64,000 nucleotides of DNA. Origin: Paramecium tetraurelia (taxonomy: Eukaryota). Both the position numbers and the translations under genes were made by a program. The notes under the pieces are model-generated. The model did no database searches. It saw nothing but the letters and a program-made list of their open reading frames with translations, and was not told the DNA's origin. Where the stretch lies: assembly GCA_000165425.1 (NCBI GenBank), contig CT868096.1:558001-622000 (forward strand), read 5' to 3'. Below are positions 47,742 through 60,315 of the stretch, piece by piece (the first letter of the stretch is position 1; every line of letters begins with the position of its first letter).

Positions 47742-47957
47742 ATGTCTAAAGAAGGCAGCGCTTTATGGACACCATTCAAAACCACTAAAGAATTTATTGA
47801 AAAAGATTAAAAGATTACAAAAGGATTCATACAAGGGGCATTGTTTGCTGTTATTGGTTACGGAGTTGGATTTGCTTTATTCAAAGGTAAGACACTGAGA
47901 GGCTTTAGTGCTGGTACTGCAGCAACTTGGCGATTTAGAGATTAGATTGAATAATGA
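47742..47957 (+). CDS. 71-aa Gly-rich hairpin membrane protein, Mic10 (MICOS)-like
   Basis: GFIQGALFAVIGYGVGFALFKGKTLRGFSAGTAATW: two Gly-rich hydrophobic segments separated by a basic loop. Confidence 0.5.
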
Positions 47958-48034
47958 TTTAAATAATATATATATTATTAAGCTCAGCATTTGTTTTAGC
48001 ATGTTCATCTGAGCAATAGGAATGTGCAAATCAA

Positions 48035-48310
48035 ATGTATTCCTTTTAATTTGAAGTTCTTGGTAAAGTCTAAGGTGTCTACTTTAGAAAATACACTCAA
48101 CTCAAAGCCCAGGAGTTGGATTTGGTTGGCTGGGTACAAAACACAAAATAAGGCACAGTCATTGGAATAGCATAAGGAAGAAGAACTAATGAACTCAAGG
48201 AATGGCTGAAACATACAGGAAGTCCAAAAAGCGTCATAAAGAAAACAGATTTTAAAAACGATAAAATAATAGACGAATTAGAATATGACTAATTTGATAT
48301 CATTAAATGA
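48035..48310 (+). CDS. ACYP: Acylphosphatase
   Basis: FEVLGKVQGVYFRKYT...GWVQNTKQGTV...WL..TGSPKS; intronless 91 aa. Confidence 0.95.
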
Positions 48311-48317
48311 TAAATAT

Positions 48318-49369
<1,052 letters not shown>

Positions 49370-49589: not shown

Positions 49590-51110
49590 ATGGACAATTC
49601 TGAGTTATACGAGATACAATATATATTTGGCTCTCAAATATTGGATAACAAAATGCAATACTGTGTCAAGTGGAAAAATTATCCCAAATCTCAAAGAACT
49701 TGGGAGCCTATTGAGAATCTAGGAGCTCACAACATCTCCTCTGTTCGAAGATACTAAAGACATGCTGATTACTTTCTCTTTTATTAGTTCATTTACGAAG
49801 GATAAGTAGAAGGATATAGAGTACATTAAAAATAAAATACACTTGAAAAAATTAAAGTCATACCAGACCCACAGGAGGAAGACGAACAAATAGAATAAGC
49901 TAATACAGACAAACTGAACACAACTATCAAGGAGACACTTAACTAAGAGAATATCAAATCAGTATCTACACCCAAAGAAACTACGAAAAAGGTGACTCGA
50001 TCTGGTAGAAAGTAAATTTAACTTAAAGCAGAGGATGAGTCTCTTTCTGATTCTAAGGATTTTGACTTTGGTAAAAGAACCAAGAAATCTAAATCCAAGG
50101 CTAAATCTTCATAATCAAGAAAGAAATCTCCAACTTCAGGAGACAAGTCTAATTAAACCTAACCAAAGAAATCATAATTTGTAAAGTAGGAATAAGTTGA
50201 AACTGATGAAATCAATCATGTCCAACCAAAGTCTTAAGAAAGATAACTAGATTAAGATTAACCAAATGAGGAAAATCTAAGTGAAAAGTCTTAGTCCCAT
50301 AAAGAATAATAAAAAGTACAGACAAGATTAAGAAATACAAGGAATGAAAAATCAGTTGAATAGATCAAGTCTCCAGCTTATTTCAATTAAATTAGAAAAC
50401 TTATTTTATCTTTAAATGAAGATGAAAGATCACTTGTTGCATCCTATATCAATGATAAAATGAAGGACAATATCTTTGAACATCTAGGTGCCTTGTGTGT
50501 ATTGGATTATATGCAGAGAAGAGAAGAAGTTTTGAATGAAATTAAATAACAAGAATATATTTATCCTTTAAAGGGAGAACCTGCTGTTTAACCTAACAAA
50601 TAGAGCAAAAGGGCTAAGAAATTAGAGAAGACATCCATCAAAATGGAATCCTAAAGATCAACTGATATTGCTTGTCCTCCCCAATCTAAAAGGCTGATTA
50701 GACTGTCAGCATTTGAATAAAGGAAGAAATGCATGAAAAAGAAAGATGATCCTTGCAATATGGCAGATTTCTTGGCATCTATAAATTAATTCCCCTAATT
50801 CGGAGTTGTCTCGACTGAAGTTGATTCCAAAAACCTGTATGGATAGATTGGATTTTAAATTGGAGAAGAAATAACTGGACATTATTATGGTGTAAATGCT
50901 AATGAAACTGGTAAGGCTAATGTTTAGTTGTATTTTGTTATGAAATTCAGAAGAGAAGGAGATAAAACATTTTTATACAATCATGTCACCAGAGCTGAAT
51001 GCTAACTCTATGAAAAAGACTTACTCTATGATTATGTCTATAGGAATTAAGAACTACTACCAGAGATGTATAATGATCTTATTGTTAGAAGTGTTTATAA
51101 TTAATAGTGA
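49590..51110 (+). CDS. HP1-like protein: N-terminal chromodomain, long linker, putative chromoshadow-like C-terminus
   Basis: Intronless 506 aa; YEIQYIFG...YCVKWKNYPKSQRTWEPIENL; C-terminal GFQIGEE...LYFVMKFRR...VTRAECQLYEKDLLYDYVY. Confidence 0.85.
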
Positions 51111-51136: not shown

Positions 51137-51977
51137 ATGTTATCCTATAAATCCTTGTATGGAATTGCTAAATTCAACTAACTCAAAGACTACTATGCCA
51201 TATTAAATATATCTAAAACTAATGATCAACCAACAATCAAAAAAGCCTACTATGCATTAGCTAAGAAATTTCACCCAGATGTTAACCAAGGCAAGGAGGA
51301 TAAATTCAAAGAAGTTAATGAAGCATATGAAGTAATCAATACTCTATTCTCAGGTCTTATCTGATGAAAATACCAAAAAAGAATATGATTCTGCGAGAAC
51401 ACCATAATCCTAAAATAATAATTATAGTTCAACCTATTCATAGCAATAATATTAAGACTCCAGAAAATATTAATCAACTTCTTAGCAAAGATAAAGTTAG
51501 AATTATTAGTATGCTCATTGGTTTTATATATGATAGCCAAAATTCAAATGCCAAAAATCAATTTGACGAAGCAATAAGAAGAGCATAAGAGCATCTTAAT
51601 TAATAATAGAAGTATCAATAATACGAGAGAATGAAGGCTCAGTAAGAGTATGAAGAGAGAATCAGATAGGAAGAAATGTATGCAAGAGCAAAAGATTAAT
51701 AATATAAGGAGTTTGCACAAAGATATTACAATGAAAATAAAAGAAAAACATTTTATTCACATTAGGAAAAGTAGGCATATGAAGCATTCGTTCGACAAAG
51801 AGAGTTTGAAGAATCTATCAAAGAAAAGATTGTATTTAAATAAAATATACTTAGCAAGATTTTAAATAAAAGGGACAATAAGTTATGGGTGGATTTTAAA
51901 ATATTTCTAAGAACTTAGGTGATATAAAAGAAAATTTAGGCTCTATTTGGAATACTATTAAAGGAAAAAATAGATGA
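51137..51977 (+). CDS. DnaJ (J-domain) protein
   Basis: KDYYAILNI...[17 protein letters not shown]...[13 protein letters not shown]; two tiny introns. Confidence 0.93.
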
Positions 51978-52496
51978 ATTATTAATTATTTATATTTTGA
52001 ATTCATTTCTTATACTATATACATTTAATCAAAATTCTTTATTGTATCATCATACTCTGAAAGATTTCTAATATATTAAAAATAAAAATATCTAGTAAAT
52101 TTGATTATTTATGGATTATTAAGAATTTTATAAGAGAAGAAAAATGCTTTTATTTTTTTTAGATTGGAAAAGGTTTCAACATAAACTTTTGTATTTATTA
52201 TAGTTAGAATAATCTTCACTTATTTGGATAATATCATAAAATTACTGATAGACTCAAATATTTAATAAGGAAAATTTCTAATGACAAAAATAATTCTACT
52301 TTGAAAAATAAATGAAAGTGATTAAAATAACAAGTTTATCTATATTTACAAAAAATAAATTCAAGTATCTGATGAACCAAAAAATAAACCATTAAATGAA
52401 ATTTATAATGTGTTGTTTCTAAACTATAAGTTTTATTATTTCAATAGGACAGAATTTTGGTTAACATAATTTAAGATCAAATACATTTTATTCATA

Positions 52497-53344
52497 TCAT
52501 TCTTATTACAACCATTTTTTTCTTCTTTCCACTTCTGCCATTCCTTTAGTCAAATATAACGATTATATATCCTCTTTTGACTTTAACTTTTAATCCTCTT
52601 CAGGCTTCCAATAAATAAAGTAGTTTTAATTCTCTAGGAATTATCTTAAATTATTAAAGTTTCCTGAGCAGGCTTTGAGTAGAGTGATCATTTTCTCAAA
52701 TGGGATATCATACCATAAGCTTAAATCATGGAGAGCATTCTAAAATTATTCTTACTTTAATCTTTAGGATTATTAATAGTTAGGATTAGTAGGAAATCTT
52801 TATTCCTAATAGGCAGGTGCTGAGCAATATAGAATATATTTTTATAAGTCAGTAAGTTAATAATAATTTTAAGGTTATGGTTATACTTCTGGCTGAATGC
52901 GTCTTTTTTTCTTTAACAAAGGTTCTCCTATCTGTTTCATTTCCTTTTTCTTTTATATATCTTCTTTTTGTTTTTTAATTTCCTCGTTAATTTTACAAAT
53001 TTTTATTTCATTTTTCTCATAAATTAAGGTTCCCTCCAAACCATTATTTTTAATAAATTCAATAATTGATTTCAAATCGTCTTCTGTTAACTTCTTTATA
53101 CAGTTGATATATCTAAGTTTTAATTCATCAGGTGTCTTTTTATGACATTTTTGTGATAATTGCTCAAAATGTTAATAGGTTAATTTTTCATTTAACATTT
53201 TTTCTAATATCAGCAGATCTTCAAATAAAGAAAATTAACTTTAGTCTAAATGTTAAACTATAATTAATTAGAAACAATAATACCAATCTTTTTTTCTTTT
53301 GCTTAAGTGTGTTCTTAGATGTATTGTTATATCAATTAAAGCAT
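52497..53344 (-). CDS. Rap1/TERF2IP-like protein (Myb-like domain plus Rap1 C-terminal domain)
   Basis: FSLFEDLLIL...KTPDELKLRYINCIKKL; C-terminal LLKACSGNFNNLRQFL...WKPEEDQKL...LYLTKGMAEVERRKKWL. Confidence 0.75.
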
Positions 53345-53986
53345 AATATAAAAAACAAATTATTAATATTTTTTATCATCTTTATTATTTTAGAGAATAA
53401 TCCTTTTGTATTAAAAACTTTAGACTCTATATTTATATTATATTGATTCTGTTCAAAGGTCTATTCAGTATTGAATTCTTTATAAATATTTATCCACAAT
53501 TCTTGTGCATCTAATTTTCATTTTGACCTAGCATTTTGTAACTCATTTATGTCTTTTCATTTATTCTACAAAGGAGATGATTAGATTTTAATTTAACAAC
53601 TAAAATAATTGAGTTTATCTTCGATTCCACTTGTTGTTTATAAAAATTAAAAAAATGTCTTTTAAAATTTGAGTATCATTATAGTATTATAATTTTTCTG
53701 AAGTCTATGTTTTTGATTATTAACATATCATCCATTTCTTCACATCCAATATTGTTATTTAAGGTAAGAAGTATTATAATACCTTTTAGAGGTTTAAAGT
53801 ATCGTATTGTTTTTATTTCGATTACATTCTATTTAGGAAATTTGTGTAAATATTTTCAGCTTTGAAATCGATGAATATAAATCAGAATTGCATCAATTTT
53901 GATATATAATACTTTTTGTAATTCTATTAAAAATTGAGTTACCTTCTTAAATTAATTACAAAGAAGTCATTAATTAAATTTAAAAA

Positions 53987-55423
53987 ATGGCATTAGCACT
54001 AGCAAAGAATATTGATCTACATTTACCGTATTAATAGCTTCCAACTAAAAAATAAAAAAAAATTAAAATACATTGTTTAGAATATGGCCATCGTGATTAA
54101 AAAGTAGAATATTTAAACTTAACACCCGAAACTGATGTGATAAAATCAAGATTACAATGTATTAAGTGCATTAATGGTCCTTACTCAAATTTTAGGTAGT
54201 AAAATGCTGTGCTCGAAGAAGTAATAGAAAATATTATCTAAATATTTAGGTTTTAAGTGACGACATGAATGTTATGAAACATACACATTTTTAGGGAAAT
54301 CTTTACCAAGAATTTTCAAATCTTTATCATTCCTTAAATTTAGATATTAGCAAAGATGACATTAAATTTGTAATTGTATTTATTGATCATAGAGAATTGC
54401 AACAATTAAAAAATAGATTTTATACGATCTTTAAGTATTAGAATAAGATGTGCTTAGTAATTATGATAAGTATTAAGAAATATAAGATAAAATAAAATAA
54501 TAAGTTGACAATTTAAAACCTGTAATAGAAATTCTTATAATAGGATTTTGATTTTTCTGAGTTATAAGTGCATTTAGAGAATTACGCCAAAGAAGGTCCC
54601 AACCCCCCACCTAAGTCATAAAAGAAAATAAATGATTTACTTAATAAATATGTTTAAAACTTACATAACCCAAAAATAGCTCAAAAAAAAATCGACAGTT
54701 TAGAATAGCTTAAAACAAAGGTTAATGACTTTACTAAGAAATTATGGTAAAAATTGTTATTATTATAAAAGCTTTCATATTCATAAACTTGACTAAGGAA
54801 TGGAAAAAATTTAAAACATAATTGAGGAAATGAAAAAAACATTCTCTGAAAATAACTTTACCTAATCCTAATTGTCAAACGACTATATATCAATAGTCTT
54901 GGAAAGAATTGACAAAGATTATAAAGACACTACAAAAGTTGAACAAATAAAGAACTTATATACAAGTATTCATGAGGGACTTAAGTATGATACAATATTA
55001 AACCATCTAAAATAGGAAGAATCATCAAAATTGCTCTTTATTTTCAAAAGTTCTAATTCTTAAATATTTGGAGCATATACTTCACCTGCACTTGCACCTG
55101 CACCTGTACTTGCACCTGCACCTGCACCTGCACTTGCACCTGCCGTTTAAAATCCTAGTTTTATGTTTTCATTAAGCAAATAATAAATTTATCCTTTAAA
55201 TTCAAATACGAAACCTTTATAATATAATAAGGATGCTAATGACATTAATGAGCTATTTACTTTAGGAACTCAAGATCTAGTCATATAATCATCATTTGAA
55301 AAATGTAAATCAAAATTAGGCAGTAGCTTTGATTTAAGTGGTTACTAGATAACCAATTAAGATATGCATTTAGCAAATGCAGTAGAATTTGAAATAGTTG
55401 CCTTAGAGATATTCAAATTATGA
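53987..55423 (+). CDS. TLDc-domain protein with N-terminal Cys/His (B-box-like) motif
   Basis: C...GH......CIKC at the N-terminus; LY....EG, LLFIFKS...IFGAYT, SFMFSL, LG..DL.I, LEIF TLDc motifs. Confidence 0.8.
55082..55144 (+). repeat. (GCACCT)n hexamer repeat encoding a Pro-Ala run
   Basis: tcacctgcacttgcacctgcacctgtacttgcacctgcacctgcacctgcacttgcacctgcc. Confidence 0.95.
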
Positions 55424-57541: not shown

Positions 57542-60315
57542 ATGAGCTTAAAAAATTAAGAAATTGATCAATAATAAGATGAAAGACAACAAGTCTAACC
57601 ATATAATTGGAAAAAATAAATAATAGAAGAGAAAAATTTAGAATATTTTGATAATTACTAATTCTATAATAAAGGTAGGGAGTTTAATAAAAGAAATTAC
57701 GGAGTGACAGTTGATTACAAATTTGGGAAGGTAATATTATCACAAGATTTTTTGGAGAGCCAACAAATACAGTTTTATATGAATTTGTTCAAGAATGTAT
57801 ATAAAAATGTTAAAGTATGATATACTTTTATTTTATAGTTGGCTGCAGCATCTTGCCATTTTTTTTAAGAATTTTGGACCTAATAAGCGGAAGATATATA
57901 TTTAAGAATAAATCCTATTAATACCTAATTAATTTCGAATAATCAATATTAATAATAAAATACATAGTTGGATTACCAATTGAGATTGAATAATCAAAAT
58001 GAATTTGACAAAGGATCTGAAGTAATTAAGAATGAAAGCAAATAATAATGGAAGAATAATAATTCAGAAGGAAATATTGAATAAAAAAATGAAAAAATTT
58101 AAACTGAGAACTAATAATAGAAAGATAATAATAATTCAGAAGGAAATGTTTAGTAAACATCTGAAATAACCAAGAATGAAAACTAATAATAGAAAGATAA
58201 TAATAATTCAGAAGGAAATATTGAATACAAAAATGAAAAAATTTATACTGAAAACTAATAATAGAAAGATAATAATAATTCAGAAGGAAATGTTTAGTAA
58301 ACATCTGAAATAACCAAGAATGAAAACTAATCGTTAAAAGAGAATATTAATTTAGATGGAAATGGTGAATAAACAAATGAAAAAATTTAGAATGAAAACT
58401 TAGAATAGAAAGAGAATAATAATTCCGATGGAAATGTTTAGTAAACATCTGAAATAACCAAGAATGAAAACTGATCATAATAGAAAGATAATAATAATTC
58501 AGAAGGAAATGTTTAGTAAACATCTGAAATAACCAAGAATGAAAACTAATCGTTAAAAGAGAATATTAATTTAGATGGAAATGGTGAATAAACAAATGAA
58601 AGAAATTTAGAATGAAAATCTTAGACAACTAAGAAAGAGAACTAATAATTCCGATGAGAAACTGTTTCAGTAAACTATCTGAAATAGCCAAGAATGAAAA
58701 CTAATAATAGAAAGATAATACATAATTCAGTTAAGGAACATATTGACACCTAAAAAAATGAAATAAATTTAAATCTGAAAACTTAGAATAGAAAGAGAAT
58801 AATAATTCCGATGGATAATGTTATAGTAAACTATCTAAAATAACTCAAGAATGATAAACTAATAATAGAAAGATAATAATAATTCAGAAGGAAATATTGA
58901 ATAAAAAAATGAAAAAATTTAAACTGAAAACTAATAATAGAAAGATAATAATAATTCAGAAGGAAATGTTTAGTAAACATCTGAAATAACCAAGAATGAA
59001 AACTAATCGTTAAAAGAGAATATTAATTTAGATGGAAATGGTGAATAAAAAAATGAAAAAATTTAGAATGAAAACTAATAGTAGAAAGATAATAATAATT
59101 CAGAAGGAAATTTTGATTAAACAGAATAATCAATTTAAATTAAAAACTAATAATAATAATAAGAGAATAATAATTCAGAAGGAAATGTTGATTAAATAAA
59201 AGAACAAATTTAATTTGAAAATTAATAATAAGAGAATGATAATTCTAAAGGAAATTAGAATTATAATTCCGATAGAAATGTTGATTAAATATCTGAAACA
59301 ACTAAGAATGAAAACTTATAATAATAATAAGCAACTAATTCAGAAATTTATGTTGAATAACCAAGCCTATAATAATAATACAAAAACAATTCATAAATTA
59401 TTTAATAAACAAATGGACACCTCTAACCATAATATAAAAACAAATCAGAAATTCTAGCATAATAACAAACTAAAACCAAGCATGAATAATATTTATAAAA
59501 AACCAATTCAGGAATTCTTGTTTAATAAACAAATGAAAATTAATAATAATAAAATAACAATTTATAAGAATAAGTCAATAACATTTCAAAATAAAATGTT
59601 GAACAAACTTATGAAACAAGAGAGAATGATAAATAATAGTAAGAAAAAACGAATATTCCTGAAACTGCATCTGAATAAACTTCCGTAAGTGATGAGATCT
59701 ATCAATAGCCTCCAATCTAAAACTAGCCATAAAATCCACTGCCCGTACAAACCCCATAAAGAACATTTGTATTTAAAATTACTAGTATTACTTATGAAGA
59801 ACCGAAAAAAAAAGAAAAGTTTTAGATTAATAAATTATGTGATTTACTAAATTAAGTAGCTTAAATGAATGGACTAAACTCTCAAGAAGATTTAAAAGCT
59901 TAGGATTACTTATATTTTCCAATCAATCTCAGTCAAGCACATTGGATAAGCGTAGTAGTCAACTTAAAAAAAAAAATAATTTATTATTTTGACTCCTATT
60001 ATGAAAGCGTAGAGGATGATGTAAAAGAAGGCATATTTATAATATTAAAAAGCTTAAATTTTGACCGCTAAGATTTTAAATTTGAATGCAAATGGAATAA
60101 ATAATAAAATGGGTAAAAATTTATTTTTATATATTAGATATGATTGTGGTGTTTTTATTTTATTATCATTATTATATACATACCAAGAAGAGGATAACTA
60201 TTCCTATAATTAACAAAGGGCAACTGAGTTTAGAAATCGAATTTTATATGATTTAGCTATTGTGGGTTCTTAGACAAATTTAACAAAAGAACAATTTGAA
60301 TCCATTATAAATTGA
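57542..60315 (+). CDS. Ulp1/SENP-family (C48) cysteine protease with a large internal tandem repeat
   Basis: YFPINLSQAHW, IYYFDS, QQNG/YDCGVF catalytic H-D-C motifs; frame disrupted inside the repeat at ~58470-58860. Confidence 0.8.
58030..59330 (+). repeat. 72-bp (24-aa) coding minisatellite with alternating unit types
   Basis: Units NENQQQKDNNNSEGNVQQTSEITK and TENQQQKDNNNSEGNIEQKNEKIQ repeated roughly 17-18 times. Confidence 0.92.

What the first reader, a model, noticed from the sequence alone, without database searches (positions are those of the whole stretch)
52497..53344. Rap1/TERF2IP-like protein (Myb + RCT) in a ciliate
Seen: the C-terminus reads LSLWYDIPFEKMITLLKACSGNFNNLRQFLENQNYFIYWKPEEDQKLKSKEDIQSLYLTKGMAEVERRKKWL, and the N-terminal part reads FSLFEDLLIL...KTPDELKLRY..CIKKL. 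Known: these follow the Rap1 C-terminal pattern (SG...L...W..EDD..L...L..K.G...V..R..F) and the Rap1-type Myb pattern (F...ED..IL...S...RY...L). The ciliate telomere proteins I know of are OB-fold ones (Pot1, Tpt1, Pat1/2, TEBP); I know of no characterised Rap1. Inference: this may be a shelterin-like duplex-telomere or chromatin factor in a genome with massive de novo telomere addition. No BRCT domain is evident.
Basis: partly seen in the sequence, partly recalled or inferred. Interest (0 to 1): 0.75.

Follow-up and report, generated by a model that had tools for sequence, protein, structure and literature searches.

The report
BRCT-less Rap1-like protein in ciliates
This unannotated Paramecium gene encodes a distant relative of the telomere protein Rap1 that keeps the C-terminal partner-binding domain and a Myb-like domain but has no BRCT domain, which gives a concrete candidate for the proteins on double-stranded ciliate telomeres, a role not yet tested.

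Summary
Window 53344-52497 (minus strand, code 6, one 26-nt intron) encodes a 273-aa protein identical to P. tetraurelia GSPATT00000902001, labelled 'uncharacterized'. Alone it scores under the Pfam Rap1_C cut-off (20.1 of 24.2 bits). A 17-sequence family profile, collected without any Rap1 seed, ranks human TERF2IP first of 177,635 PDB sequences (E 4.4e-8), then human and yeast RCT domains. The AlphaFold model matches the human RCT at Z 12.1, rmsd 2.3, 88 residues. The N-terminal domain is Myb-like but not demonstrably Rap1-type. No BRCT was found in the protein, upstream, or in relatives. The genome holds at least four paralogues (two duplicate pairs, dN/dS 0.08 and 0.03); relatives occur in Nyctotherus and in peritrich-code contigs; none was found for Tetrahymena. 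Best reading: a BRCT-less Rap1-type adaptor, recruited through its RCT, probably to telomeric chromatin; localisation and partner are inferred only. Ten literature searches found no ciliate Rap1. The scan earlier noted a BRCT-bearing Rap1 in Perkinsus (other DNA, not checked here).

The parts
53284..53344 (-). Exon 1 (61 nt), start codon and N-terminal helices (residues 1-20)
   Evidence: helices H2-11 and H14-21 in model mee371a315bec
53258..53283 (-). 26-nt GT..AG intron
   Evidence: splicing gives P0034 exactly and the duplicate gene has an intron at the same offset; not bridged by RNA reads
52497..53257 (-). Exon 2, ending in TGA
   Evidence: minus-strand RNA reads over 52468-53204
53094..53237 (-). 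Three-helix Myb-like domain (residues 28-75); basic N-terminal-arm residue replaced by Gln
   Evidence: Pfam Myb E 0.07-0.14, under cut-off; model helices 31-43, 48-57, 63-72; Myb/homeodomain structural matches Z about 5.5-7.2
52989..53093 (-). Family-specific extension of the Myb domain: fourth helix and beta hairpin (residues 76-110)
   Evidence: alignments A2, A8; model H79-92, E96-101, E104-109; included in the match to yeast Rap1 447-579
52899..52988 (-). Variable Lys-rich linker ending in a basic patch (KKKRR, residues 136-140), candidate nuclear localisation signal (inference)
   Evidence: low pLDDT 124-154; dN 0.24 between the duplicates
52764..52898 (-). Segment conserved in this paralogue clade only (residues 141-185) with a free helix 157-166; candidate partner-binding motif (inference)
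   Evidence: nearly invariant in alignment A1; dN 0.065; absent from the second pair and the peritrich-code relatives
52506..52763 (-). Rap1 C-terminal (RCT) domain, six helices (residues 186-271)
   Evidence: Pfam Rap1_C E 6.7e-4, 20.1 of 24.2 bits; profile E 5.4e-6 to 3k6g; structure Z 12.0-12.2, rmsd 1.8-2.3, 87-88 residues

Best explanation
The gene encodes a diverged Rap1/TERF2IP-related protein made of a single Myb-like domain with a ciliate-specific extension, a linker and a genuine RCT domain, without BRCT (shown at the level of sequence and predicted structure). It most likely works as an adaptor like human or fission-yeast Rap1: the RCT binds a short helix of a partner, which places it on telomeric or subtelomeric chromatin of the macronucleus, where it links a duplex-DNA binder to length-control or silencing factors (inferred). 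This paralogue probably does not bind DNA stably alone: it has one Myb domain and no basic N-terminal-arm residue (inferred). Lacking BRCT, it should not block LIG4 on Ku the way human RAP1 does (inferred from PMC12221994). Homology of the RCT I put at about 0.93; the telomeric adaptor role at about 0.55.
For: Family profile A2 (17 sequences gathered from the Paramecium profile, no Rap1 seed): the top 5 of 177,635 PDB sequences are all Rap1 (human full length E 4.4e-8 with Myb and RCT in the same order; human RCT 3.6e-4; yeast RCT 4-5e-4); next unrelated hit E 0.016. RCT-only profile: top 5 again Rap1, E 5.4e-6 to 1e-4. Structure: top 3 of 48,161 chains are Rap1 RCT entries, Z 12.1, 8.3, 8.2, repeated with a second model, Z 12.0, 7.5, 7.4, next row 5.7; Foldseek ranks 1-6 are Rap1 RCT chains. 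Closer to the human RCT than to the yeast one in both models. Purifying selection, dN/dS 0.08. Transcribed. RCT is described as a protein-interaction domain and single-Myb Rap1 proteins as recruited by partners (passages of PMC8653790; PMC10813129; PMC7857110). The residue aligned to human R133 is Gln/Glu in 8 of 8 proteins of this clade, Lys/Arg in 13 of 18 non-Paramecium-labelled relatives.
Against: The single protein and the five-Paramecium profile find no Rap1 in the PDB. Pfam Rap1_C stays under its cut-off for this protein; over the cut-off in 1 of 18 and 1 of 20 relatives; only 1 of 9 peritrich-code proteins match it at E 0.05. Foldseek E-values are 0.2-0.6; Z 12 lies just under the tool's caution level of about 13 for helical bundles, and identity to the human RCT is 15%. 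An unrelated family (haemagglutinin HA2) reaches E 0.0017 with the RCT profile over its first half. Myb-only profiles do not find Rap1. BRCT, stated to be in all known RAP1 homologues, is missing. No experiment or genomic context ties the gene to telomeres; neighbours are unrelated.
Confidence: 0.55

Rival explanations
1. The family is itself the direct binder of duplex ciliate telomeric repeats, in the manner of budding-yeast Rap1: the extended Myb domain (helix 4 plus hairpin) reads the repeat, perhaps as an oligomer, and the RCT recruits effectors. The second Paramecium pair or the peritrich-type proteins would be the better binders.
For: In the full-length model the best match to the N-terminal domain is the second Myb-like domain of yeast Rap1 on DNA (3ukg Z 5.9, rmsd 2.5, 75 residues; 6ldm 5.8; 1ign 5.6), and it runs through the extension. 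A basic arm residue is kept in 13 of 18 other relatives, and at the neighbouring position in 4 of 4 second-pair proteins. The recognition-helix motif R-[TS]-x3-[LI]-[RK]-x-R-Y is well conserved. Tetrahymena duplex binders were reported as unidentified in 2011 (PMC3204076, passage).
Against: Only one Myb domain; net charge of the Myb of this protein is +1; one Myb is described as insufficient for stable binding. This paralogue lacks the arm residue.
Confidence: 0.18
2. A Rap1-derived adaptor whose main job is off the telomere repeats: gene regulation or silencing, for example of subtelomeric surface-antigen genes, as trypanosome RAP1 silences VSG genes.
For: RAP1 homologues act in telomeric silencing and transcription (passages). 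BRCT, the module that blocks end joining, is missing. Two old paralogue clades in Paramecium suggest divided roles. That Paramecium surface-antigen genes are mutually exclusive and partly subtelomeric is recalled, not from a call.
Against: All characterised RCT-bearing proteins met in the PDB searches are telomere proteins. No test here of promoter binding.
Confidence: 0.2
3. Not related to Rap1: a Myb protein with a UBA/CUE-like three-helix bundle followed by a short helical tail, resembling the RCT by convergence.
For: The first half of the domain matches UBA/CUE folds at Z 4.3-5.7 over 40-64 residues; one ESM Atlas lead was a UBA cluster at 0.82; Pfam under cut-off.
Against: UBA matches cover about half of the domain, the RCT match covers all 87-88 residues with twice the Z; the S-G, W..ED..L, K-G and R motifs align with both human and yeast RCT; Myb and RCT stand in Rap1 order.
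Confidence: 0.05

Closest known systems
Human RAP1/TERF2IP (PDB 8rd4 chain D, 3k6g RCT-TRF2, 1fex Myb; Pfam PF11626)
   Same: Single Myb followed by C-terminal RCT in the same order; best sequence-profile hit (E 4.4e-8) and best structural hit (Z 12).
   Different: No BRCT; 273 instead of 399 residues; extra helix and hairpin after the Myb; arm residue R133 replaced by Gln in this clade; no TRF-like partner found; Myb match to 1fex only Z 5.7.
Saccharomyces cerevisiae Rap1 (RCT 3cz6, 3owt, 4bj5; DNA-binding domain 1ign, 3ukg, 6ldm)
   Same: RCT matches (E 5e-5 to 1e-4; Z 7.3-8.3); the N-terminal domain aligns with the second Myb-like domain over 69-75 residues.
   Different: One Myb-like domain instead of two, no BRCT, about a third of the length; the Myb match is of middling, tied score.
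Trypanosoma brucei RAP1 (from the review PMC10813129, passages only)
   Same: A diverged protist RAP1 with weak homology; a model for subtelomeric silencing.
Tetrahymena Pot1a-Tpt1-Pat1 overhang complex (PMC3204076, passages)
   Same: Ciliate telomere proteins; a POT1 domain gene is in this genome.
   Different: These bind the single-stranded overhang or bridge to it and are unrelated in fold; the duplex binders were unidentified in that paper.

Membership tests
RAP1/TERF2IP | C-terminal RCT domain (six-helix bundle) | tested here: met
   Profiles E 4.4e-8 and 5.4e-6; structure Z 12.0-12.2 over 87-88 residues. Pfam gathering score not reached.
RAP1/TERF2IP | Central Myb domain | tested here: met
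   Three-helix Myb/homeodomain fold, residues 28-75; aligned to human RAP1 126-189 at 11 bits within the combined profile.
RAP1/TERF2IP | Myb specifically of the Rap1 type (Pfam PF08914 Myb_Rap1) | tested here: inconclusive
   PF08914 not listed for 13 of 13 rows nor; Myb-only profiles find no Rap1; yeast Rap1 domain 2 is the best but tied structural match in one of two models.
RAP1/TERF2IP | N-terminal BRCT domain (in all known homologues according to PMC10813129) | tested here: not met
   Only 27 residues precede the Myb; no BRCT family in 18, 20 and 9 family proteins scanned nor in 9 of 9 upstream minus-strand open stretches; no upstream coding conservation with the duplicate; 0 of 8 BRCT_2 loci of the genome match the family profile.
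RAP1/TERF2IP | Recruitment by a TRF/Taz1-type partner through the RCT | tested here: inconclusive
   No PF08558 TRF or PF12231 Rif1_N match in the genome, but the controls did not ring either.
RAP1/TERF2IP | Telomere localisation and telomere phenotype | not testable with these tools
   Needs tagging, ChIP and knock-down.
Budding-yeast type Rap1 (direct DNA binder) | Two tandem Myb domains | tested here: not met
   One Myb-like domain in both models.
UBA/CUE domain proteins | Stand-alone three-helix bundle as best explanation of the C-terminus | tested here: not met
   UBA/CUE matches Z 5.7 or less over about half of the domain, against Z 12 over the whole for RCT.

The most novel reading that the evidence does not exclude
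Ciliates use a BRCT-less Rap1 family as the core of their long-missing duplex-telomere complex. One paralogue class binds the repeats or a binder, the other (this gene) is a pure adaptor, and loss of the Ku/LIG4-blocking BRCT is what lets telomere capping coexist with the Ku- and LIG4-dependent programmed DNA elimination of macronuclear development (that dependence is recalled, not from a call).
Probability: 0.25. Interest if true: 0.85.

Novelty: new variant of a known kind. Interest (0 to 1): 0.62.

Why it matters
Telomeres and telomerase were worked out in ciliates, yet the proteins on their double-stranded repeats were reported as unidentified (PMC3204076, 2011, passage), and ten searches of the held library found no ciliate Rap1. 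Four Paramecium genes that can be silenced by feeding give a direct test, and their RCT is a bait for the missing partner. A recent review states that all known RAP1 homologues have BRCT; a family without it across at least two or three ciliate groups would show which Rap1 function survives without the NHEJ-blocking module. [quoted passage not shown]

Tried and rejected
Single-sequence and five-Paramecium searches of PDB sequences: no Rap1; P0009 alone: none. Two Myb-only profiles: no Rap1 Myb. ESM Atlas: whole protein gave only leads under 0.9, RCT alone no usable hit. PF08914 search of the genome returned L004, an ordinary multi-repeat Myb protein that does not match the family profile; rejected. 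TRF and Rif1_N searches were blank with blank controls, so they say nothing. An upstream BRCT exon was looked for and not found. Homodimer prediction: no answer, score 0.00, alignment not used, controls not folded. No RNA holder was listed among indexed runs; raw runs were laid instead. Two 18-19-letter pieces of one contig at 53332-53349 and 53554-53572 were treated as chance matches. Telomeric repeats in the window: 1 match, 0.36 expected. Haemagglutinin HA2 hits to the RCT profile cover half the domain and have no structural support; rejected. P0038, clustered with a 40-aa fragment, is unrelated and was dropped. No homologue labelled Tetrahymena, Oxytricha or Stentor came up in three word-index searches (limited to 138-441, 76-1136 and 46-441 residues and to the 8000 best candidates) or among the 20 of the look-ups; this does not show absence. 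Six old gene identifiers occur in no main text; newer identifiers and supplementary tables were not searched and may list these genes. Chen et al. 2011 on the RCT was not held.

Full report
1. The gene. The window is a stretch of a 72-Mb genome in 697 contigs. Read with code 6, the minus strand has ATG at 53344, a 26-nt GT..AG intron at 53283-53258 and TGA at 52499-52497. The spliced 822-nt CDS translates exactly to P0034, which the sources name P. tetraurelia GSPATT00000902001 / A0CK72, 'uncharacterized protein'. In 3 of 3 raw RNA runs laid (one study, 33-42% of each read) reads cover 52468-53204 at depth 0-3.6, all with the first mate on +, the opposite of the plus-strand neighbour, so the gene is transcribed at low level from the minus strand. 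No joint across the intron was listed, and a few minus-strand reads lie at 53272-53606, upstream of and around the ATG (depth under 1). The life stage of the samples is unknown.

2. The family. The genome has a duplicate (C136) and a second, distant pair (C12, C502). A probe with a distant relative found these four genes and nothing else at E 0.1; this is a lower bound. dN/dS is 0.08 within the first pair and 0.03 within the second, where synonymous sites are near saturation. A profile of five Paramecium proteins over 1.84 billion representatives gave 19 hits at E 0.001; later searches added 7 and 36 hits, partly the same. Named relatives are from five Paramecium species and Nyctotherus ovalis. 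Ten metagenome loci (two identical over the gene) carry intronless full-length genes of 282-291 residues; at 42 of 45 in-frame TAA/TAG positions the other rows have Glu as majority residue, which is the peritrich code of NCBI table 30, and one contig ends in TTGGGG repeats. The origin of the longer relatives P0009 and P0022 is unknown. A profile of 24 relatives without this gene's clade scores it 123 bits from residue 6 to 271, against at most 10.2 for 1000 shuffles. The tree of 27 proteins separates the two Paramecium clades with long branches; deeper order is unreliable.

3. The C-terminal domain is an RCT. Alone the protein reaches Pfam Rap1_C at E 6.7e-4, 20.1 bits, under the cut-off of 24.2; 5 of 5 close homologues list it; 8 of 18 and 8 of 20 wider relatives, many of them fragments, list it, one in each set over the cut-off; only 1 of 9 peritrich-code proteins do. 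The protein alone and the five-Paramecium profile find no Rap1 among PDB sequences. The 17-sequence profile, gathered without a Rap1 seed, ranks human TERF2IP first of 177,635 (E 4.4e-8; Myb 126-189 at 11 bits and RCT, in order), then human RCT (3.6e-4) and three yeast RCT constructs (4-5e-4); the next hit is at 0.016. A 33-sequence profile repeats this (9.3e-8), and an RCT-only profile gives 5.4e-6 to 1e-4, with haemagglutinin HA2 at 0.0017 over half the domain as the noise floor. Two AlphaFold2 models (mean pLDDT 76.8, about 90 in the RCT) both return the three Rap1 RCT entries at the top of 48,161 chains: human 3k6g Z 12.1 and 12.0, rmsd 2.3, 88 residues, 15% identity; yeast Z 7.4-8.3. Foldseek ranks 1-6 are Rap1 RCT chains with probability 0.96-1.0 but E 0.2-0.6. 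Z 12 is just below the tool's caution level for helical bundles, but it covers the whole domain, stands well above UBA/CUE half-matches (5.7 or less) and agrees with the sequence profile. The models rest on the same alignments as the profiles, so the two lines are not fully independent.

4. The N-terminal domain. Residues 28-75 form a three-helix Myb/homeodomain fold, followed by a fourth helix and a beta hairpin that are conserved in most of the family, though not evident in the Nyctotherus-like rows. That it is of the Rap1 type is not shown: two Myb-only profiles find no Rap1 and PF08914 is listed for 0 of 13 rows. Human R133, which reaches into the minor groove and is needed to block LIG4 recruitment (PMC12221994, passages), lies three residues before the first aromatic of the Myb in the alignment. 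Of 31 proteins examined 30 had the motif; the position is Lys/Arg in 0 of 8 of this clade, 0 of 4 of the second pair (Lys one place earlier in 4 of 4) and 13 of 18 others, many of which are close kin.

5. No BRCT. Only 27 residues precede the Myb. No BRCT family appears in the proteins scanned or in 9 of 9 open minus-strand stretches upstream. DNA likeness with the duplicate ends about 70 nt upstream of the ATG, with one weak six-frame match at E 0.005 further up; in the second pair a conserved opposite-strand gene fills the upstream space. None of 8 BRCT_2 loci in the genome matches the family profile. A review states that all known RAP1 homologues have BRCT, Myb and RCT (PMC10813129, passage), so I do not file this as a canonical member; it is a BRCT-less variant.

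6. How it most likely works. Shown: architecture, RCT homology, selection, transcription. Inferred: the RCT binds a partner helix, as human RCT binds TRF2 through helices 1 and 2 (PMC8653790, passage); a single Myb is described as insufficient for stable DNA binding (PMC7857110, passage), and this clade lacks the arm residue, so it is probably recruited rather than bound directly. A 45-residue segment before the RCT is conserved only in this clade and may bind a second partner. Without BRCT it should not occlude LIG4 on Ku. No partner was found: TRF and Rif1 searches were uninformative; a POT1 gene is present. Rivals are direct duplex binding (0.18), a mainly gene-regulatory role (0.2) and convergence (0.05).

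7. Literature. Ten full-text searches listed no paper on a ciliate Rap1, and the six old identifiers of three of the genes occur in no main text. I read keyword passages, not whole texts, of PMC8653790, PMC4748036, PMC10813129, PMC9498494, PMC13685816, PMC3204076, PMC12221994, PMC7857110 and PMC5855555; other papers were seen as listings only; no supplements were read, and most subscription papers are not held.

8. Verdict. A real, expressed, conserved gene; RCT homology is well supported, the telomere role is a reasoned inference. New variant of a known kind, interest 0.62: it makes an open question testable, but Rap1 is widespread, no Tetrahymena homologue was recovered, and nothing here shows telomere association.

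Noticed in passing
G000:C12:161074-161834 (L005) and G000:C502:330567-331323 (L006): A second, distant pair of Myb-RCT genes (246 aa, about 24% identical to the window's protein, dN/dS 0.03), head to head with a conserved opposite-strand gene; GSPATT00029052001 is labelled uncharacterized.
   Followed up: yes
L025-L034: Metagenome contigs with intronless homologues read TAA/TAG as Glu (42 of 45 positions; peritrich code); standard-code gene calling had cut these proteins into fragments. L025 ends in TTGGGG repeats about 2.3 kb from the gene, L032 in a short similar run.
   Followed up: partly
window 49590-51110 (+): 506-aa open frame with an N-terminal chromodomain (Pfam Chromo E 1.5e-11) and a long charged linker; an HP1-like layout is possible.
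   Followed up: no
window 51137-52104 (+): DnaJ-domain gene converging on the Rap1-like gene; its region is conserved next to the duplicate gene.
   Followed up: no
window 54632-55423 (+) and 47954-48310 (+): TLDc-domain frame with an Ala-Pro repeat, and an acylphosphatase with a hydrophobic N-terminus.
   Followed up: no
window 53272-53606 (-): A few minus-strand RNA reads upstream of the ATG in two runs (depth under 1): a longer 5' end or a separate weak transcript; no coding domain found there.
   Followed up: partly
G000:C113:875977-876363 (L024): The only POT1-domain match listed in the genome lies on the same contig, about 265 kb away; probably chance.
   Followed up: no
window 48285-49369 and 57789-59460: Two long low-complexity repeat regions within open frames.
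   Followed up: no
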